From a virus (taxonomy: Duplodnaviria; Heunggongvirae; Uroviricota; Caudoviricetes): a DNA stretch of 64,000 bases. The stretch lies in the IMG/VR virus record IMGVR_UViG_3300029976_000110; one strand, 5' to 3'. The notes under the pieces are model-generated. The model saw nothing but the letters and a program-made list of their open reading frames with translations, was not told the origin of the DNA and searched no databases. Shown here in pieces: positions 3,677 through 62,336 of the stretch (positions within the stretch are counted from its first letter, which is position 1; the number at the start of each line of letters is the position of its first letter). Both the position numbers and the translations under genes were made by a program.

Positions 3677-3689
3677 CTCTAAAAATATA

Positions 3690-3942
3690 TTAATGAATCC
3701 AATGATCTCCTATTGAAATATCTGCACCTAAATTAACATTAGGACAAAATGGCTTACCTCCAGCAACCATACAGTCTACCAGTACTTTAGCCACTTCATC
3801 TTTCATTGATTCAGGACACTCCAAATTCCATTCATCGTGAGCAGGAACACACATTAAAACTTTGTCTTGATACTCATTTTTTACAATCCAATTGAAAAGT
3901 TTAATAGAAGCTAGTTTGAAGCAACAAGCTCCCCTATTTTGT
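3690..3942 (-). CDS. DNA polymerase family A, exon 3 (motif C and C-terminus)
   Basis: An in-frame segment the ORF track missed translates as ...QNRGACCFKLASIK...LMCVPAHDEWNLE...GDHWIH*. It contains the Pol A motif C (HDE) and the terminal H that are absent from the 4180..5694 ORF. Confidence 0.7.
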
Positions 3943-4189
3943 CATTTTGTTATCCTAGAGGTTCTTTATCCTCTAGCTCTGTATCTTCCTTTTCGATACA
4001 GCTCGGACTATATCTTAGTATATTTTTACAAAACATACTTTCCCTTTTCGTGGAATTTTACTCTCCCATTAGGAGTTCATATTCTAGTCTCTACACCTTC
4101 ACAATATTACTATTGTGCTTGGCTCGATATTCCCATCTCAAGGTTCATCGAATTTAGGGAATTTTAACAGGACACAAACTTACCATTTC
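3943..4189 (-). ncRNA. group I intron (ORF-less, ~247 nt) between DNA polymerase exons 2 and 3
   Basis: P1: exon ACAGGAU pairs with IGS GUCCUGU, with U.G at the splice site. P10: exon ACAAA pairs with GUUUGU just 5' of the IGS. R element GUAGAGACUAGA. S element UAAGAUAUAGUCC, identical to the Tetrahymena S block. P9/P9.1 hairpins present. Ends in a G before exon 3. Confidence 0.65.
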
Positions 4190-5753
4190 ATCCTGTAATT
4201 AATAGATTGCCTTTCAGAAGCGGATTTTCTTATATTAAACTTTCTTACTTCTTGAACAGTATCACAATAAGGAGATTCTTTCCGCATTTGCCAATAATAC
4301 GCAGAAAATTCTGGATCGTTTAGTTTGGCTGCCATCTTCTGTTGCCACTTTGCATCATAAATATGTGCTCGATGCCCAAGTACGGGATTCATTAGAATAT
4401 ATCCCTTACTCATTACTGCATATCTACAATAATCCTGGTACTTCTTAATACCAGGAAAAGCCTTCATAAAGTTGTTATATATTCTTTCTGCATCCTCTTT
4501 CTTGAATCCCTTATTAGCCATAAGTGTATGTGCATCTCCTCCATAGAATATGCCAAACTCGACCCCCTTGGAGTTCTGTCTAAGGTCTTTATGTTGGGCT
4601 TTAATTTCTTTATCAGTAAGACCTCCAAGAATATCTGGCCAACAGCTTCTAGCTACTTCACTATGTAGATCTCCTCCAGTGTTTAATATTTCTATCATCT
4701 TCGGATCATTTGCTACTGAGGCAGTAAGGCACGACTCTTGACCCGAATAGTCGCATGAGAGCCAAACATTGCCTTTTTCAGCTGTGAAACAAGACCTAGT
4801 GCCTTCATCATGTGGTAGGTTTTGCATATTTAATTTATAGACACCCCCACCACTGCTCAGTCTGGAAGTATCAGTTCCAATTGAATGAAGCTCAGGGTAT
4901 ATACGTCCAGTTTTTGGATTAATAGCTTTAAGCCAGTTCTCTCCATAGGTAGAAACTAACTTAGAAGCACCTTGATAACGAAGAAATAGAGATATAATCG
5001 GGAACTTACTTGCCTGCGGAGCTATTTGCTTTTCTTCGATAGACTTCTTTTCCTTTTTTGTCTTCTTATCAAAAGTTTTGCATTGGATTCCAAGTAATTC
5101 GAAGAGAGGAATAACTTGTTTAGAACTACTCCAACTTATAATACAGGCATATCCAGGTTGTACAAACCCAAATAAGTCTGGTTGGACATACTCTACAAAC
5201 TGCTTAAACTTTTGCTTATCAGAATTATATAAGTCGATAACATACTGATTGAGCTCTTGTAACGAGTTATCTAGCTCTTTTTGATCCTTTTCCATTTTGG
5301 CTTTCCAACGATCAACATCCAAATGAATCCCACAATATCGTGTATATGCTACTGCTTTTACAAACTCACACTCAAAGGCAGCGGCCTTAAATAATTGCTG
5401 TTTCTCTAATTCTTTACTTTGTTCAGCATAAATGTCTTCAATCCACATAACATCACCTGCCGCATACACTACTACTTCTTCAGTTAGACCTTCATTGATT
5501 ATCTTACCTCGAACAGTTTTATCAATGTCAATATTGCACCACCTTTGTGCAGCAGCTTTTAAAGAATAACTTAACTCCCAATACTTAATTAATCCATTAT
5601 CATCGAGTATTTGTTGATAGCCAAACTGCCCATCATATTGATCTACAGTAAGAGCTGCTGGCATCCCTAGGAAAATAACTTTATCAACAACCATCCCATC
5701 TATTATGTGTTTAGGGTAAATCTTCTGTACATACAGAAAGGTGAGATCAAATG
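4190..5753 (-). CDS. DNA polymerase family A, exon 2 (ExoIII and polymerase motifs A and B)
   Basis: YAAGDV (Exo III), TGRIYP..GTDTSRLSS, DYSGQESCL (motif A) and RQNSKGVEFGIFYGG (motif B). The ORF stops at ERQSINYRMKW*, just before where motif C should lie. In-frame sequence upstream of the annotated Met extends to ..AFDLTFLYVQ. Confidence 0.8.
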
Positions 5754-6492
5754 CTATTCTCTAATTCTTTCAAATTAGTATCGACTATATCATTAATCTT
5801 TTGATTCATATCCACTAACTTTTCAAACTTTATAAAATTTATATATTTTCTATCTAATTTTGCGTCATTAGAGTTTTTATACAAAATATGTAAGACTCTT
5901 AGAATTTCATCAATGCTGCTAATTCTAATACTATAATAGGTATTTTCCTTTTTTTTGTTTCTATTATAGAATAATTTACCTTTATCTCATTTAAAAAATT
6001 AGATAGTCCAAGTTTCATTGCCGAAGATCCAGTAGTAATATCTAAGTGAACGTCTTTAAATTTGCCAGAGGTATAAGTATAGGATAGACAACCATCTCCA
6101 TATTTTTCAGCAACCTCTTTTGCTTTAGTTCCAGATAAATATAAATCTTTAATCTCATCTACATATATTTGTAGATTTTTTCGTAAGTTAGTGTTTTCTT
6201 TTGTTCTCATAATTAAAATACTTGTTATATCGTTTTGATTTGATATACAAATATAAATATGAAAAACGAAATATCAAAAGATTATTGGGCACTTTTATTA
6301 AAAAATGATATTTTAATAAATTTCTGTTATTAAGAGAACTATATCCCTCAGATAGTCTGTGAGCTTTATACTAATGTATTAGTATCTTAGCTGCTGATTG
6401 TCCAATCTTTCTAATTATCACACTTGTATAGAAAGCTCTAAGGAGTTTCCAGCAATTCACCCAATTTTCTATTTATAATAGCTGCCATTTTG
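5754..6492 (-). mobile_element. group I intron (~739 nt) in the DNA polymerase gene, carrying an internal 103-aa ORF (5899..6210)
   Basis: P1: CUGU|caaaaug|GCAG with U.G at the splice site. P10: exon CAUUUG pairs with the loop CAAAAUG. R-like CACAGACUAUC. S block AAUGAUAUAGUCG followed by a P9 hairpin CUAAUU-ugaaag-AAUUAG. Ends in ..GAAUAG. Splicing rebuilds the Exo II motif as IGWNLS-FDLTFL. Confidence 0.65.
5899..6210 (-). CDS. intron-encoded small ORF (possible degenerate homing endonuclease or DNA-binding protein)
   Basis: 103-aa ORF lying wholly inside the predicted intron between the R-like and S elements. No clear HE motif recognised. Confidence 0.3.
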   Translation of the reverse strand: MRTKENTNLRKNLQIYVDEIKDLYLSGTKAKEVAEKYGDGCLSYTYTSGKFKDVHLDITTGSSAMKLGLSNFLNEIKVNYSIIETKKRKIPIIVLELAALMKF

Positions 6493-6772
6493 ACAGATTC
6501 CATCCGATAAATGTCCTCTCAGATTCTAGATATTCCTTTAATTGATTTTTTTCGTTTTTAGAAAGTGTCGACCAATCAAATACTACTTGATTTTCCTTGT
6601 TTCCCAGCTGAAGAGTTAAAATCTCTTTACTGTGGCAGTCGAGACCAGTAGTTTCACTATCCAGTTGCACTAAAGTAAGAGGATAAAGTACTTCCATGGC
6701 TCCGTGAAACTCAACTTGTTTATAATTCTCTGGACTAAATAGGCCCTTATTCCTGCTTACTAGATAAATCAT
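6493..6772 (-). CDS. DNA polymerase family A, exon 1 (3'-5' exonuclease motifs Exo I and II)
   Basis: LDSETTGLD (Exo I) and FIGWNLSK (start of Exo II). The unspliced ORF runs into WQLL*. Splicing after ..AAUCUGU restores G-W-N-L-S-F-D. Confidence 0.75.
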
Positions 6773-7077: not shown

Positions 7078-7531
7078 GATTTATAGCATTTTTATACTTC
7101 TCATAGATCCCTCTAATATACTCTTCTTCCATTGGATGATCTCTGAGGCTATCTCTTTTAATACATTCTTCTAATGAAATATCAAAGAATTGCTTGTACT
7201 CTATTTCATATACCAAATTAATAGAAGATTGCCCGATCCATTCGTTAAAGCTCTTTACTTCTTCTTCAATTTCTGATATAGTCTTTGGGTTTAAATTCAT
7301 ATTATCGAGGACTATATCATAACCACTAAGCATAGCTTCATTTAAGAAACTCTTATATATGGAATCAATTAAATCTTCTCTAGAAGAAGTCCGGTATGGT
7401 CCTAACATATTCCGAACCTCATCCCTATTAAATCTAACTCGGGTTTCTTTATTTTCCTCAACCCAAGTCTTGGCCCAAGTAGTCTTACCACTTGCAGGTA
7501 TACCCTGTAGTACTATTACTTTTCTTTTCAT
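7064..7531 (-). CDS. polynucleotide 5'-kinase-like P-loop kinase (T4 Pnk kinase-domain-like)
   Basis: Walker A GIPASGKTT. RFNRDE and VLDNMNLNP follow the spacing of the T4 Pnk kinase domain (NINRD, ISDTNLNPERR). No phosphatase domain is attached. Confidence 0.55.
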   Translation of the reverse strand: MKRKVIVLQGIPASGKTTWAKTWVEENKETRVRFNRDEVRNMLGPYRTSSREDLIDSIYKSFLNEAMLSGYDIVLDNMNLNPKTISEIEEEVKSFNEWIGQSSINLVYEIEYKQFFDISLEECIKRDSLRDHPMEEEYIRGIYEKYKNAINHENI

Positions 7532-8385
7532 TCTAGTAATTCTTTTAATTCCTCACCATAAATGTTTCGCATTTTATCTAAAGCAGTATGAAGTATTTGT
7601 CTAACTCGTTCTCCTCCAATTCCAAATCTTTTAGCTATTTCAACATTTGGAATTGGATACATACCAATGCCAAAAAACATTCTTATAACATCATGCTCCC
7701 TATTAGAGAGACATCCTAATGCCTTTTCAACAGCTATAGGGATATCTTTCTTCGATACTGCTTCATCGGCCGGTTCAGAACCATTTGGTATAATATCAAG
7801 TAAACAACTTGCTTCTTCATCGTTATGTATAGGACTTTCTAGAGAAACAGACCTATTTGAAGCAGCCAGAGACAAGGAGATCTTTTCAGGATTGAGATTA
7901 GTGCTATCTTCAAGTTCAATCATTGAAGGACTTCTTCCATTTTCTTGCTCGAACTTTTCAGTAGCTTTATTAACCTTACCCATACAAACAATTTGATTCA
8001 TAGGAACTCTTACAGTTCTACATTGATCAGAAATTGCTTTAGTAATAGCCTGCCTAATCCACCATACAGCATAGGAAATAAATCGAAAGCCTTTGTTTGC
8101 ATCAAATTTACGGGCTGCTTGAAGCATTCCAAAATTCCCTTCTTGTATTAAGTCAACAAGATCTAGCCCTTTATTCTGATATTGCTTTGCTACAGAAATA
8201 ACAAATCTTAAATTAGCTGTAACTAATTTTTCTTCTGCTTTTTTATCTCCTTCTTTAATTCTCCTAGAAAGCTCTATTTCTTCTTCTGGAGTAATCATAG
8301 AAAGTTTAGATACGTCCTTGAAGTAAATCCCCAAGGACGCATCCTTTCTATCAGTTATAGATTGACTAATCTTGAGATTTTTCAT
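7528..8385 (-). CDS. RNA polymerase sigma-70 family factor
   Basis: Region 2 (LRFVISVAKQY..GLDLVDLIQEGNFGMLQAARKFD, YAVWWIRQAI) and a region-4 HTH (EIAKRFGIGGERVRQI). Confidence 0.8.
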   Translation of the reverse strand: MKNLKISQSITDRKDASLGIYFKDVSKLSMITPEEEIELSRRIKEGDKKAEEKLVTANLRFVISVAKQYQNKGLDLVDLIQEGNFGMLQAARKFDANKGFRFISYAVWWIRQAITKAISDQCRTVRVPMNQIVCMGKVNKATEKFEQENGRSPSMIELEDSTNLNPEKISLSLAASNRSVSLESPIHNDEEASCLLDIIPNGSEPADEAVSKKDIPIAVEKALGCLSNREHDVIRMFFGIGMYPIPNVEIAKRFGIGGERVRQILHTALDKMRNIYGEELKELLE

Positions 8386-16236: not shown

Positions 16237-17516
16237 TTATTCAATAGTACTACTATACGTTCTATGATTGGCTTCAATTTGCCTATACTTATCAAAACCT
16301 TTAATAGGCCTAAGGAATCCGATCACCCTTGTCCATTGAGTCATCTCATGGCTTCCACAATTCGGACAAACAGTAAGGGGTTTCTTATAGATTTTTCCAC
16401 ACTTATCGCATTGTGTGTTAGGGATATTAAAAGTATAATAACAAGCTCCTACATTAAGAGCATGTTTCATTAACTTCTTATATTGTTCCTTACTTAAGTG
16501 ATCTTGTAGGTTTATATGAATTGCCTGCCCTCCTGATGATGCTTTAGCAATTTCCCCACCTTGTAGAACGAACTTATCCAGAACAGAAGTGTCATCATGG
16601 GCATCATAGATATAAGAGTTATAGAGAACTCTATTATCAGGTACTTTATAACCATCAGCTTTATCCCAATTATAATTCTTACTACCTAGACCTTCTGCAG
16701 GTACAATTTCTACATTTAACATAAAATCAGCAGTACTATTTGCAATGTTAAAATCTTGAATCGTTCTAAGAATAAAGGTTACAAAGTTCTTATAGTCCTC
16801 ATTGTTATTCACATTCAGGCCAACGAACATGGCTGCTTCATTAATACCGTTTATGCCAGTAGTACTAAAGAGCTTGTGAAAGTCAATAAATCCAGCATTT
16901 ACGCAGGAAAACATCTTCTTATCCGCCCATTCGTACAGAATAGTTTTATAAGCAATTTGATCTTTCTTAACTCTTTCTAGGATGTCTATTAAATAGTTAT
17001 GGAATTTATCCATGTTCCTATAAAAGTCATTATAGTCCATACCAGAAGTATATCCTCCTGTTCTAGCCCAATCTTGAATGATCCTATTTATATTAAGAGT
17101 AATAACATTACAACTTCCAGTACTAACTCCAGTAAGGCCAATAGTAGATGAGAATGTATTCTCACTTATTTCATTTCTCAGCCTACAACAACTAGCAACG
17201 GCATCAGAATTGTCAGATGTATATGCAAAGAAACTATGTCCTTCAGACCACATTTCTGCTGCAAAGTCGGCATATTCTTGATCTAGATATTCACCATCTT
17301 TACTAAGAAGACAAAGCGATTCAACAGGATAAGTAAGTAAAGTTTTGGTTCTTTCATTATTGAACCATCTCATGAATCGCTTCTGTATGAAACTAACTGC
17401 ATCCCAATTTAAAGTACTTCCATCAGGAAATACAAAAGCATCAAATAAGCTATGCCAATAAAACCTATCAAAATAATTAAAATTTACAACATTTATATTT
17501 AATGTAGTTCGTAAAG
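16237..17516 (-). CDS. nrdD: anaerobic ribonucleotide reductase NrdD, exon 2 (C-terminal part with Zn ribbon and glycyl-radical motif)
   Basis: C-terminus CDKCG..CPNCG then TRVIGFLRP (glycyl-radical RVxG motif). In-frame sequence upstream of the annotated Met continues the NrdD body (..NFNYFDRFYWHSLFD..). Confidence 0.75.
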
Positions 17517-17744
17517 CTACTCCTTTATGTTTCCATAAAGATTAGACTATATCATTACTCTCAATGAGAGACCTCCCACTTCCATCACCATTAACTTGTG
17601 ATGTACTCTACTCACTTCCATCTTGTTTAGATGTGTTTTCGATAGTCGTTGAACGTTCTTCTAATGAAGCTTCGTTGCTGATTATCCTCGACTCTACGTT
17701 AGGAGTTTCCAGCAATTCAAGAGGTTTTACGTCCGCATATTTTT
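17517..17744 (-). ncRNA. group I intron (ORF-less, ~228 nt) in nrdD
   Basis: P1: GUCCGU|aaaaauau|GCGGAC with U.G at the splice site. 5' block UGAAUUGCUGGAAACUCC is identical to the DNA polymerase intron 1. R GUUCAACGACUAUCG. S UAAUGAUAUAGUC. P9 CUUUAUG-GAAA-CAUAAAG. 3' splice site placed at GAGUAG|CUUUAC by analogy; the exact 3' boundary is uncertain by ~30 nt. Confidence 0.55.
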
Positions 17745-18642
17745 ACGGACTTTGATAACTTCTGTTCCCAGCAGGTTGATTTATAGAATAAACCACATTC
17801 TGGAATGCTTGGTCTATCTCATCACCTATTGTACGTTGATTACAACAAGCTGAGGTGGTTACTACAGTATCTGGATGAAGGTAAAAATCTTTTCCCCATT
17901 CTAACTCACAAAAATGAGTAAAGAAGTTAAAGAACTCTCCCACACCAACAGCTCCTTTGCATTGAGAGGAACATAAGAAGATTAGATTGATAAGTTGCCC
18001 GCAGAAACTCTTCAAGTTATGAGGAGGCTTAGTTCCAAGTCCGTCCATTACACTAGTTCCATGTAAAAGAAGTGGATAAAGAGTGATAGCTTGACAATAG
18101 AATTTGGGAACAGAAGTAGAACTTTCATCATGTGTGTAGATAATATGATGTTCTAGGTCTTTAACATACTGTTCCGCAACTTCTGGAAACATTTTCTTAA
18201 GCTTCTTTGTCATTCTACGCCTTTGTATTCTCCTATTTCTCTTTTTATAAACTTCACTCTCTAAATTAGCAACATTCTTTAATGATACATTAGCATTTCC
18301 ATCTGTTTCGGATGATGTGGCTGCGTTATCAGAACTCTCAGAGTATTCATCCATATATTTTAACCTATCTTCATCTTCTCTTTCAAGTTGATGGGTATAG
18401 CGATAAAGAATATAAGATTTAGCTACTTCATTATAGTCCCAATCCATTAAAAGCTCTTCTATCTGATCTTGAATATCTTCAACACTAATTTCATCCCAAA
18501 TTTGGACTTCATCTACAATTTTTGTCAATACATCTTCCCCAATATGAGTGTTTGTAGACAAAAAAGCCTTTTGAAGCGCACTCTCTATTCTAGTACGATC
18601 AAAAGGAACCAGATTTCCATTTCTTTTTCTTACTTTACACAT
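17745..18642 (-). CDS. nrdD: anaerobic ribonucleotide reductase NrdD, exon 1 (ATP-cone and N-terminal catalytic region)
   Basis: MCKVRKRNGNLVPFDRTRIESALQKAF is an ATP-cone signature. The unspliced ORF ends QSP*. Confidence 0.75.
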
Positions 18643-43890: not shown

Positions 43891-43962
43891 TCTCCCTAGC
43901 AGGAATCGAACCTACATCTATAATTTAGAAAAATATTGCTCTATCCATTGAGCTATAGGGAG
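43891..43962 (-). tRNA. tRNA-Arg (anticodon UCU)
   Basis: Acceptor CUCCCUA/UAGGGAG. D-arm GCUC-AAUGGAUA-GAGC. Anticodon loop UUUCUAA. T-arm GUAGG-UUCGAUU-CCUGC. Confidence 0.7.
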
Positions 43963-61313: not shown

Positions 61314-62221
61314 TTGTTTTTAACTTTCACTTAAAACTCTTCTTAAAAGAGATCCTCTTAGAAAGTACTGGATTTTGGTTAAAATTTAATTAGTGGAACA
61401 TTCTCTTTTAAAGTGAGAGAATATGACAACACTGGTATACCTGATTATAATTAATTTCGTCTTAATTTTCAAAGACTCGTCAGAGGTACTTTTCAGTGTT
61501 AAATATTTGAGTTTTAGTTAATTATTGTTTCATTATTTAAAAAGATAAAATTAAGATTTAATTTGAGAATAAGAGTTTTTTGTAGTGTTGGGGCTGTGGG
61601 GTGTATTTACCCACCTTTCAGCCTATCTCCAACCCAAAAATTTCGACTTTATCTGCCAACGTCAATTTGCAGATTAGCTCAATTTTTTTAAAAACAGTTT
61701 GGCGAATTTCACAATCCACCAAACCAAATCCTAAAAACCATTCAAATTATCCCGAAATCAAAAACAAAAACAAAGTTTCTTTTCACAGTCAATATTTCAG
61801 CTCGAATTTCCGATAGGAAAGTTTGAAACAGTCAAATGAAACTGACTGTAACGCTTCCATTACAACTAGTTTTATCCAATTCTTTAGTTCCAATAATCCA
61901 TTAATCTTCGAATTTGATACTCATGTATCATTAAATTGACTTTATAAGCAAATAATTGCACAAGTTTATCAAATAATGATTCATTTGTAATTGTACTTAT
62001 AGCTTTCAAGCATTGATGTATTTCTATCGAATTTAATTCATTATTTGCTTTAAGATGATTAATAGCATTAGTTATTACTGTAATTGTATCATTAGACTTT
62101 ACAGCTTCTGAAATACAGTAATTTCTTCTCTTAAAAGTTCTATTCGTTCATACTCGGTAAAAAACATTTTCTGTGTCATATTGTTTTAATTTAAAGTGTT
62201 ATTATCAAACTATTTACATAG

Positions 62222-62270
62222 GTTCGTCCAAGTCTCATCAATGATAATTTTAACGACTCCTTAGCTGTCG
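62222..62270 (-). repeat. conserved ~48-nt intergenic element, copy B
   Basis: See copy A. Lies 67 nt 3' of 62337..62669. Confidence 0.5.
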
Positions 62271-62336
62271 ATGTATTTTCTACTAAAAATAAATATGACT
62301 TACATAAAAGCAAAGGGAGCTAATGCTCCCAATGCC

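What the first reader, a model, noticed from the sequence alone, without database searches (positions are those of the whole stretch)
3690..6772. Family-A DNA polymerase is split into three exons by two group I introns
Each of the three ORF pieces carries only part of a Pol A. Exon 1 (6493..6772) has Exo I/II. Exon 2 (4190..5753) has Exo III and motifs A and B. Exon 3 (3690..3942) is a sub-threshold frame holding motif C (VPAHDEW) and the conserved ..HWIH* end. Splice sites can be read directly from the sequence. For intron 1, the exon end CUGU pairs with IGS GCAG (U.G at the site) and the 3' exon CAUUUG pairs with the P1 loop. For intron 2, ACAGGAU pairs with GUCCUGU and the 3' exon ACAAA pairs with GUUUGU. 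Both introns contain the canonical R (..AGACUA..) and S (AAGAUAUAGUC / AAUGAUAUAGUC) elements and a P9 hairpin, and both end in G. Splicing yields a 698-aa protein. The junctions restore IGWNLS-FDLTFL (Exo II) and align SINYRIQNRGACCFKL with T7 LNTLLQSAGALICKL. Multiply-intronated polymerases are known from SPO1-like and Bastille-like phages, but the ORF track here would mis-annotate this as a truncated polymerase plus orphan ORFs.
Basis: partly seen in the sequence, partly recalled or inferred. Interest (0 to 1): 0.7.

Follow-up and report, generated by a model that had tools for sequence, protein, structure and literature searches.

The report
Phage DNA polymerase split by two introns
A gut-phage DNA polymerase gene is interrupted by two self-splicing group I introns and must be spliced at the RNA level to make one 698-residue enzyme; the reading is correct, but this kind of split gene is already well known in phages.

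Summary
On the minus strand, exons 6772..6493, 5753..4190 and 3942..3690 join into a 2097-nt ORF. Its 698-aa product matches Pfam DNA_pol_A and DNA_pol_A_exo1 as single colinear stretches. It also aligns without any indel at either junction to uninterrupted ~700-aa homologues (65-75% identity). An intron-less allele (L002) shows at DNA level that 3943..4189 is an exact insertion.

Both intervening sequences give RF00028 hits on the correct strand, but below the gathering score. Both have U.G at the 5' splice site, a terminal G, a P10 pairing and a full P3-P9 core.

Intron 2 belongs to a family found at the same or a neighbouring site in crAss-like phage polymerases. Across 7 members, 98.6% of cells pair and 31 of 60 pairs show compensatory changes. 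The guide sequence co-varies with the exon. Intron 1 shares its core with the S-PM2 psbA intron subfamily; P3, P6 and P7 co-vary across 65 sequences.

The nearest relatives include a Zeta-group crAss-like genome, a group already reported as intron-dense. Polymerases with two or three group I introns are known from Staphylococcus and Bacillus phages. This is a new member of a known kind. Splicing itself is inferred, not shown.

The parts
6493..6772 (-). Exon 1 of the family-A DNA polymerase. It runs from the ATG at 6772 and contains Exo I and the first half of Exo II (…IGWNLS). It ends in U6493, the wobble U of P1.
5754..6492 (-). Intron 1, a 739-nt group I intron of IA type. Elements in window coordinates: IGS GCAG 6485..6482; P10 guide AAAUG 6490..6486; P2 6481..6469; P3 6465..6460 / 6289..6284; P4 6455..6450 / 6396..6391; P5 and P5a; P6 and P6a; P7 6357..6353 / 5787..5783; P7.1 6352..6323; P7.2 6320..6294; P8 6282..6273 / 5805..5796; P9 5778..5761; terminal G at 5754. 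The exon-1 reading frame stops 20 nt into the intron (TAA 6475..6473).
5899..6210 (-). 103-aa ORF inside the P8 loop of intron 1. It is an orphan with only a weak HTH-like match and no nuclease motif. It may be a decayed homing-endonuclease remnant or may not be a gene.
4190..5753 (-). Exon 2. It contains the second half of Exo II (FDLTFL), Exo III, and polymerase motifs A and B. It ends …AAUUACAGGAU, with U4190 as the wobble U of P1.
3943..4189 (-). Intron 2, a 247-nt ORF-less group I intron. Elements in window coordinates: P10 guide UUUGU 4178..4174; IGS GUCCUGU 4173..4167; P3 4161..4156 / 4045..4040; P4 4152..4147 / 4128..4123; P5; P6 and P6a; P7 4089..4085 / 4010..4006; P7.1 and P7.1a 4084..4053; P8 4038..4018; P9 4001..3979; P9.1 3976..3955; terminal G at 3943. 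The exon-2 reading frame stops 10 nt into the intron (TAA 4182..4180).
3690..3942 (-). Exon 3. It starts ACAAAAUAGG… and encodes (I)QNRGACCFKL…, motif C (VPAHDEW) and the C-terminal …GDHWIH. The stop codon is at 3692..3690.

Best explanation
The region is a single family-A DNA polymerase gene (3'-5' exonuclease plus polymerase domains) of a gut phage. Its polymerase is closest to those of crAss-like phages, including a Zeta-group genome. The gene is transcribed as one pre-mRNA from the minus strand and is interrupted by two group I (IA-type) ribozyme introns.

Inferred mechanism for each intron:
- The internal guide sequence pairs with the end of the upstream exon to form P1, with a U.G wobble at the cleavage site.
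- An exogenous guanosine bound in P7 attacks after that U.
- The guide region next to P1 pairs with the start of the downstream exon (P10).
- The terminal G of the intron enters the G-site, and the freed 3'-OH joins the exons.

The ligated mRNA encodes one 698-aa polymerase. Early in-frame stop codons, 20 nt and 10 nt into the introns, would keep ribosomes out of the ribozyme cores.

Intron 2 is an endonuclease-less member of an intron family that usually carries an HNH homing endonuclease in its P8 loop. Intron 1 carries only an orphan 103-aa ORF in P8. Both are therefore probably no longer autonomously mobile.

What is shown: the exon-intron boundaries, the colinearity of the spliced product, the RNA homology and the covariation-supported fold. 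What is inferred: actual splicing, and its independence from protein cofactors.
For: - Spliced ORF: 2097 nt, 698 aa, no internal stop.
- Pfam: DNA_pol_A 189.9 bits and DNA_pol_A_exo1 57 bits, each as one stretch spanning a junction. The Taq alignment crosses junction 2.
- Homologues: 120 or more uninterrupted proteins at 60-75% identity and 94-100% coverage. Alignment A1 has no indel at either junction.
- DNA comparison with intron-less L002: window 4190|3942 maps to adjacent bases 1950|1951.
- RF00028 on the minus strand: 6284-6467 at 36.2 bits (E 7.6e-7), 5763-5795 at 18.2 bits, and 3984-4223 full-length at 29 bits (E 1e-4).
- blastn of the intron cores hits the S-PM2 psbA and KIL1 portal introns, both annotated as joined CDSs, and the split cr116_1 Pol I.
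- Intron-2 family (7 distinct sequences): 98.6% of cells paired; 31 of 60 pairs with changes on both sides against at most 6 in slid controls; 0 of 500 shuffles reach the observed values.
- P1 co-varies with the exon: CAGGAU/GUCCUG, UCCGAU/GUCGGA and CAGGGU/GCCCUG. P10 co-varies too: ACAAA/UUUGU against ACAAG/CUUGU.
- Intron-1 subfamily (65 sequences): five P3 positions paired in 65/65 with 4 to 6 pair types each; P6 100% paired; the P7 extension pair is AU 53, GC 11, CG 1; covariation score 0.356 against 0.094 shuffled and at most 0.166 slid.
- MFE folds recover most helices, with z = -4.9 and -3.0.
- The splice positions are the only ones that restore the homologous protein while also placing U at -1 and G at the intron end.
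Against: - No RNA data: splicing is not observed.
- Neither intron reaches the Rfam gathering score of 50 bits.
- P1 of intron 1 has only 4 exon-guide pairs (CUGU/GCAG, plus C1-G7). No second intron at the Exo II site was found, so this P1 could not be tested by covariation.
- The covariation alignments were built partly by hand. ORF loops were excised, and the helix map was derived from the window sequence. This tends to favour the given structure on the 'cells paired' measure.
- The outer part of P9 in the 65-sequence alignment was out of register (31% paired) because of a MAFFT gap.
Confidence: 0.93

Rival explanations
1. Decayed introns or a pseudogene. The inserts descend from group I introns, but one or both no longer splice efficiently. 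Intron 1 is the more likely candidate, given its 4-bp P1 and its AT-rich 470-nt P8 insert. On this reading the polymerase gene is inactive, or depends on a trans-acting maturase or chaperone.
For: Rfam scores are below gathering. P1 of intron 1 is short. The intron-1 ORF is an orphan and looks degenerate. Neither intron has a recognisable endonuclease.
Against: All three exons are intact and in register, with every catalytic motif conserved and no frameshift or stop. Every core helix of both introns is fully paired in the window sequence. A 10-bp P8 neatly closes the ORF-bearing loop. No second DNA polymerase gene was noticed among the large ORFs of the window, though only 64 kb was seen.
Confidence: 0.04
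2. A genuinely split polymerase. On this reading the three ORF pieces (99, 504 and 54 aa) are translated separately and assemble non-covalently, and the intervening DNA is intergenic or holds free-standing genes.
For: Each piece has an in-frame ATG (6772, 5694, 3854) and is called as a separate gene by automated pipelines.
Against: The ATG-initiated pieces would lose conserved residues: FDLTFLYVQKIYPKHIIDG before M at 5694, and IQNRGACCFKLASIKLFNWIVKNEYQDKVL before M at 3854. The junctions fall inside codons and inside the Exo II motif. Homologues are single polypeptides. The intervening DNA folds as group I ribozymes with covariation. There is no excess of promoter-like or terminator-like sites.
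Confidence: 0.02
3. Another kind of interruption: inteins, group II introns, programmed frameshifting, or stop-codon recoding as used by some crAss-like phages.
For: Related Zeta-group phages use TAG-to-Gln recoding and carry inteins (PMC7886860).
Against: The inserts are full of stop codons of all three kinds in the frame translated. They have no Hint or intein domain and no group II model hit. They are too short for a group II intron (247 nt for intron 2). The exons need no recoding.
Confidence: 0.005

Closest known systems
Pol I intron of crAss-like phage cr116_1 (NC_055882, Steigviridae) and its relatives in IMG/VR and ENA contigs (L115, L095, L041, L259)
   Same: Same host gene and exactly the same insertion point: after the second base of the codon following INY[R/P]. 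It is also the same intron family, with 77-83% identity in both halves, the same helices, and the same P10 guide (G)UUUGU.
   Different: Those introns are 915-980 nt and carry an HNH-type endonuclease ORF in the P8 loop (phrog_3322 and phrog_1035). The window's copy is 247 nt with a 3-nt P8 loop. Its guide sequence is re-tuned to an Arg codon (AGG) instead of Pro (CCG). In GenBank the cr116_1 element is annotated as two polymerase CDSs plus an endonuclease, not as an intron.
Group I intron of the psbA gene of cyanophage S-PM2, and the portal-gene intron of Pseudomonas phage KIL1
   Same: These share the ribozyme core subfamily of intron 1, with 79-86% identity over P4-P7.1. This includes the unusual P7.1 sequence CUGAGGGAUAUAGUUC(C/U)CUUAAUAACAG. 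Both host genes are annotated as joined CDSs.
   Different: The host genes and insertion sites differ. S-PM2 lacks the 10-bp P7.2 and the large P8 insert of intron 1. No relative of intron 1 was found at the polymerase Exo II site.
PolA of Twort-like Staphylococcus phages (phage K, fRuSau02), with two group I introns encoding I-KsaII and I-KsaIII; and Bastillevirinae / SPO1 polymerases with one to three introns
   Same: A phage family-A polymerase gene divided into three (or more) exons by group I introns located at conserved motifs. Splicing has been shown experimentally for several Bacillus-phage examples (PMC5618024, PMC11878797).
   Different: The phage lineage and hosts differ. Those introns mostly carry HNH endonucleases. 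Homology of the insertion sites to the window's sites was not tested.
Intron-dense crAss-like phages of the Zeta group (Yutin et al. 2021, PMC7886860)
   Same: L271 is OLYV01000018, listed there as zeta_6 (177.6 kb). Its PolA is 67% identical to the window's and has its own insertion at motif C. [quoted passage not shown] The window also has a third group I intron, in an nrdD-like gene.
   Different: That study found introns through endonuclease protein domains. ORF-less or orphan-ORF introns such as these two would not have been counted. Membership of the window's phage in the Zeta group was not tested with TerL or MCP.

Membership tests
Group I intron (Rfam RF00028) | P1 helix formed by the 5' exon end and an internal guide sequence, with a U.G wobble at the cleavage site | tested here: met
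   Intron 1: CUGU / GCAG (U6493.G6485), 4 bp plus C1-G7. Intron 2: ACAGGAU / GUCCUGU (U4190.G4173), 7 bp. For the intron-2 family the guide co-varies with three different exon sequences. No comparative test was possible for intron 1.
Group I intron (Rfam RF00028) | Terminal guanosine (omega-G) at the 3' end of the intron, and a P10 pairing with the 3' exon | tested here: met
   G5754 and G3943. P10 is AAAUG/CAUUU for intron 1 and UUUGU/ACAAA for intron 2, 5 bp each. P10 co-varies in relatives: CUUGU/ACAAG and CGGU/ACCG.
Group I intron (Rfam RF00028) | Conserved catalytic core P3-P4-P5-P6-P7-P8 with the P3/P7 pseudoknot, supported by compensatory substitutions | tested here: met
   Intron-2 family: 60 pairs, 98.6% paired, 31 pairs with changes on both sides, and controls far lower. 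Intron-1 subfamily: P3, P6 and the P7 extension co-vary across 65 sequences, while P4 and P7 are invariant. All helices are fully paired in the window sequences.
Group I intron (Rfam RF00028) | Score at or above the curated Rfam gathering threshold (50 bits) | tested here: not met
   Intron 1 scores 36.2 and 18.2 bits in two pieces because of the 470-nt P8 insert. Intron 2 scores 29 bits. E-values in the 3.5-kb search are 7.6e-7, 0.18 and 1e-4. None of the intron-2 family members in seven other loci reaches gathering either, whereas introns at other sites in the same gene do, at 56-84 bits. The shortfall therefore reflects model sensitivity for this family.
Group I intron (Rfam RF00028) | Guanosine-dependent self-splicing, in vitro or in vivo | not testable with these tools
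   No transcript data are available for this sequence.
Group I intron, subgroup IA | Extra helices (P7.1 with P7.1a or P7.2) between the 5' strand of P7 and the 3' strand of P3 | tested here: met
   Intron 1 has P7.1 UCUG/CAGA plus a 10-bp P7.2. Intron 2 has P7.1 GAAU/AUUC enclosing P7.1a, and both co-vary (helices 7 and 8). The exact subgroup (IA1, IA2 or IA3) was not tested with subgroup-specific models.
Family-A DNA polymerase with 3'-5' exonuclease | Colinear Exo I, II and III motifs and polymerase motifs A, B and C in one polypeptide | tested here: met
   Pfam PF00476 at 189.9 bits and PF01612 at 57 bits, both above their cut-offs. PDB hits to Pol I, Klenow and Taq at E down to 2.6e-30. 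Invariant D38, E40, D96, Y190, D194, D428, R485, K489, Y497, H650, D651 and E652 in alignment A1.
Mobile intron with a homing endonuclease | An intron-encoded endonuclease ORF (HNH, GIY-YIG, LAGLIDADG and similar) | tested here: not met
   Intron 2 has no ORF. Its relatives carry an HNH-type ORF. Intron 1 has a 103-aa ORF with no Pfam hit, only a weak HTH PHROG match (E 0.017), one near-identical database hit, and a model of pLDDT 46.6.
Intein | An in-frame insertion encoding a Hint domain | tested here: not met
   The inserts are interrupted by many stop codons and have no Hint domain.
crAss-like phages, Zeta group | Phylogenetic placement by TerL, MCP or portal, and the characteristic giant RNAP gene block | not tested
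   Only indirect evidence is available. The PolA is 67% identical to zeta_6 cMAG OLYV01000018 and about 41-43% identical to Steigviridae polymerases. Relatives lie on 145-188 kb contigs. No structural genes lie in the ORFs examined.

The most novel reading that the evidence does not exclude
Intron 1 may occupy an insertion site not seen elsewhere: inside the Exo II motif of the proofreading domain. It was absent from the other PolA loci of this clade that were examined. Separately, the intron-2 lineage sits at two positions only 7 nt apart in the same conserved motif in different phages, and in each case both the P1 and P10 guide sequences are re-tailored to the local exon. Together with four or five further occupied sites (Exo III, q404, motif B, motif C), this polymerase clade would be a natural record of group I introns retargeting to new sites, by reverse splicing or by endonuclease-driven ectopic homing. 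It would also be testable, because cultured crAss-like phages (PhiCrAssBcn) appear to carry a related interruption.
Probability: 0.45. Interest if true: 0.4.

Novelty: new member of a known kind. Interest (0 to 1): 0.3.

Why it matters
Practically, the essential replication enzyme of this phage is mis-annotated in public data as four unrelated small genes. Related GenBank genomes show the same error. The standard Rfam threshold misses the whole intron-2 family, so intron loads in gut phages are probably under-counted when they are detected only through endonuclease domains or gathering-score hits.

Biologically, the case adds a well-resolved example to the known pattern of group I introns sitting in the catalytic motifs of phage polymerases. 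It offers one endonuclease-less intron and one orphan-ORF intron. It also offers a set of related alleles, with and without introns and at neighbouring sites, that could be used to study intron gain, loss and retargeting. It does not change current understanding of how these elements work.

Tried and rejected
- The Rfam gathering-level scan of the window found no group I hit inside 3690-6772. Only the permissive scan did.
- megablast of 25 kb against GenBank phages gave nothing useful for identifying the phage.
- Intron-1 ORF: no Pfam hit, PHROG HTH at E 0.017 only, and one near-identical homologue among 5.8 billion proteins. The AlphaFold single-sequence model had pLDDT 46.6, too low to justify a fold search.
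- Search for a second intron at the Exo II site: none among 7 IMG/VR PolA loci, 120 + 120 pattern-derived loci, or 46 metagenome loci.
- MAFFT misaligned the variable 5' exon / P1-loop region of the intron-2 family, so P1 and P10 were tabulated from anchored splice sites instead. The automatic P1 finder picked a spurious match for L045; its homologous guide is GCCCUG at intron 9-14.
- In the 65-sequence alignment the outer P9 pairs were out of register and scored 31% paired. This was treated as an alignment artefact, not as evidence.
- The promoter and terminator scan showed no excess over shuffles, so it gave no support for separate transcription units.
- The intein, group II, recoding and split-subunit readings were considered and rejected (see rivals).
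- The exact IA1/IA2/IA3 subgroup and a mapping of the insertion sites onto SPO1 or T7 numbering were not attempted.
Full report
**Observation.** Joining 6772..6493, 5753..4190 and 3942..3690 gives 2097 nt and a 698-aa product with no internal stop. Intron 1 (6492..5754) is 739 nt at 26% GC. Intron 2 (4189..3943) is 247 nt at 36% GC. The exons are 35-37% GC.

**The spliced product is a complete, colinear family-A polymerase.**
- Pfam DNA_pol_A matches residues 302-696 as one stretch (189.9 bits). DNA_pol_A_exo1 matches 24-209 as one stretch (57 bits). Each match crosses a junction.
- PDB searches return Pol I, Klenow and Taq. The Taq alignment runs through junction 2: ERQSINYRIQNRGACCFKLASIKLF against ERKAFNMPVQGTAADLMKLAMVKLF.
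- A search of 5.8 billion proteins found many uninterrupted homologues of 700-760 aa at 60-75% identity, nearly all covering the full query.
- In an alignment with twelve of them there is no indel at residues 93/94 or 614/615. The flanking residues are almost invariant: GWNLSFDLTFLYVQ and ERQSINYRIQNRGACCFKLASIK.
- At DNA level, the intron-less allele L002 (175-kb IMG/VR contig) aligns to window 5751..4190 and then directly to 3942..3687, with adjacent subject bases 1950|1951. So 3943..4189 is a clean insertion.
- For intron 1, three cut positions would give the same mRNA because of a shared CA.

**The inserts are group I introns.**
- RF00028 does not reach its gathering score inside the region.
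- A local permissive scan finds only minus-strand group I matches of note. For intron 1: 6284..6467 (36.2 bits, E 7.6e-7, model 47-158) and 5763..5795 (18.2 bits, model 219-251). For intron 2: a full-length match at 3984..4223 (29 bits, E 1e-4).
- blastn links intron 1's core to the S-PM2 psbA intron and the KIL1 portal intron, both annotated as joined CDSs. It links intron 2 to crAss-like phage cr116_1, whose Pol I is annotated as two CDSs flanking an endonuclease.
- Hand assignment gives complete P1-P10 architectures with IA-type P7.1/P7.2 (intron 1) or P7.1/P7.1a (intron 2) extensions.
- MFE folding independently recovers most of the helices, with z = -4.9 for intron 2 and -3.0 for intron 1 with its ORF loop excised.

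**Comparative test, intron 2.**
- Seven further polymerase genes carry the same intron family.
- Four are at the identical site (cr116_1, L115, L095, L041).
- Three are 7 nt downstream, after the QG codons (L045, L093, L007).
- All but the window and L007 hold a 550-720-nt insertion in the P8 loop. In cr116_1 this insertion encodes an HNH-type endonuclease.
- With those loops excised, 60 core pairs are 98.6% paired across 7 distinct sequences. Of these, 31 pairs show changes on both sides, against 2-6 when partners are slid by 1-3 columns. No shuffle out of 500 reaches any of the five measures.
- The guide sequence tracks the exon: CAGGAU/GUCCUG in the window, UCCGAU/GUCGGA at the same site in other phages, and CAGGGU/GCCCUG at the neighbouring site. 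P10 changes in step: ACAAA/UUUGU, ACAAG/CUUGU and ACCG/CGGU.

**Comparative test, intron 1.**
- No other polymerase with an Exo II-site intron was found. P1 therefore rests on the single sequence: CUGU/GCAG with a U.G wobble, and P10 of 5 bp.
- The core belongs to a large phage subfamily. In 65 sequences, five P3 positions pair in 65/65 with 4 to 6 pair types each, and P6 pairs in 100% with three types.
- The pair that extends P7 past the bulged base is AU in 53 sequences, GC in 11 and CG in 1, the last being the window. P4 and P7 are invariant.
- The covariation score is 0.356, against 0.094 in shuffles and at most 0.166 when slid.
- A perfect 10-bp P8 (6282..6273 with 5805..5796) closes the 470-nt loop that holds the 103-aa ORF.
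- That ORF is an orphan with no nuclease signature.

**Context.**
- The window is a replication and nucleotide-metabolism block: RNA ligase, DNA ligase, helicases, an exonuclease and a sigma-70-like gene.
- It also holds an nrdD-like gene split by a third group I intron at 17523..17799 (78 bits), five tRNA genes and two RAGATH-1 hammerheads.
- The nearest annotated polymerases are crAss-like, at about 41-43% identity.
- Closer relatives (60-75%) lie on 145-188-kb human-gut contigs. One of them, OLYV01000018, is listed as a Zeta-group crAss-like genome.
- Across 46 metagenome loci, this polymerase clade is interrupted at Exo III, q404, motif B, the intron-2 site and motif C. Rfam confirms the Exo III, q404 and motif-B insertions at gathering level, but misses the intron-2 family in all seven other loci scanned that carry it.

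**Comparison with what is known.**
- Zeta- and Delta-group crAss-like phages are reported to carry up to 14 introns per genome (PMC7886860), and Jug phages about 18 (PMC12880540).
- PolA genes with two group I introns are known in Twort-like Staphylococcus phages (PMC5618024).
- Bacillus Bastillevirinae polymerases have up to three, with splicing shown (PMC11878797).
- The finding is therefore a correct and well-supported new member of a known kind.
- Its practical value is annotation. The identical public contig is called as four separate genes.

**Limits.** Splicing itself is inferred. The covariation alignments involved manual excision of ORF loops and a helix map derived from the window sequence. 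The phage's taxonomic placement rests on the polymerase alone.

Noticed in passing
window 17523..17799 (-), with ORFs 17743..18642 and 16237..17373: A third group I intron (RF00028, 78.1 bits, above gathering) splits an anaerobic ribonucleotide reductase (nrdD-like) gene. T4 carries its sunY/nrdD intron in the same kind of gene. Its P4-P5 sequence (GAAUUGCUGGAAACUCC) is the same as in intron 1.
   Followed up: partly
window 60542..60640 and 62203..62271 (-); tRNAs at 43891..43962, 54250..54335, 56503..56574, 57429..57501, 59280..59351 (-): Two RAGATH-1 hammerhead ribozymes (72.8 and 60.4 bits) lie near a loose array of five tRNA genes, all on the minus strand.
   Followed up: no
L045, L093, L007 compared with window 4190/3942: The same intron family sits 7 nt downstream (after …CAG GGT, the QG codons) in other polymerases. 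Both the P1 and P10 guide sequences are re-tailored there. This is an apparent case of retargeting to a neighbouring site.
   Followed up: partly
L252-L297, L006, L008 (PolA loci from metagenomes and IMG/VR): The polymerase clade is interrupted at five or more other positions: Exo III (q190-193), q404, motif B (q492-494), q615-618 and motif C (q652). L292 is another three-exon allele (Exo III plus q616-618). None uses the window's Exo II site.
   Followed up: partly
L001, L007, L041, L045, L093, L115, L259: RF00028 at gathering level misses the intron-2 family member in the polymerase gene of all seven of these loci. The only hit in any of them is an unrelated intron elsewhere in L041. The same scan detects introns at other sites of the same gene in other loci. 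Surveys based on Rfam would therefore under-count this family.
   Followed up: yes
L007 about 5960..6005; window 4038..3955: In ORF-bearing relatives, the last ~25 codons of the HNH endonuclease ORF (…FCKN[VI]LRYSPS…DKEP) overlap P8', P7', P9 and P9.1 of the ribozyme. L007 keeps extra ORF-derived codons (KELQAFCKN) in its P8 loop, which suggests the ORF was deleted there. The window keeps only the part that doubles as ribozyme core.
   Followed up: partly
L173 2890..3123 and L191 1475..1708: The closest relatives of intron 1's core (78% identity) lie in AT-rich DNA with no obvious flanking coding exons, upstream of an ORF. Their host gene, if any, was not identified.
   Followed up: no
GenBank OQ221537-OQ221555 (Bacteroides phages PhiCrAssBcn): These cultured crAss-like phages show a 2319-nt tblastn match to the 698-aa polymerase, annotated as 'hypothetical protein (x2)'. 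This suggests a short interruption like the ORF-less intron of L007, in a system that can be tested experimentally.
   Followed up: no
window 7528..8385 (-): A full sigma-70-like gene (regions 1.2, 2, 3 and 4 by Pfam on the identical JGI contig) lies about 750 bp upstream of the polymerase gene. It was not examined further.
   Followed up: no
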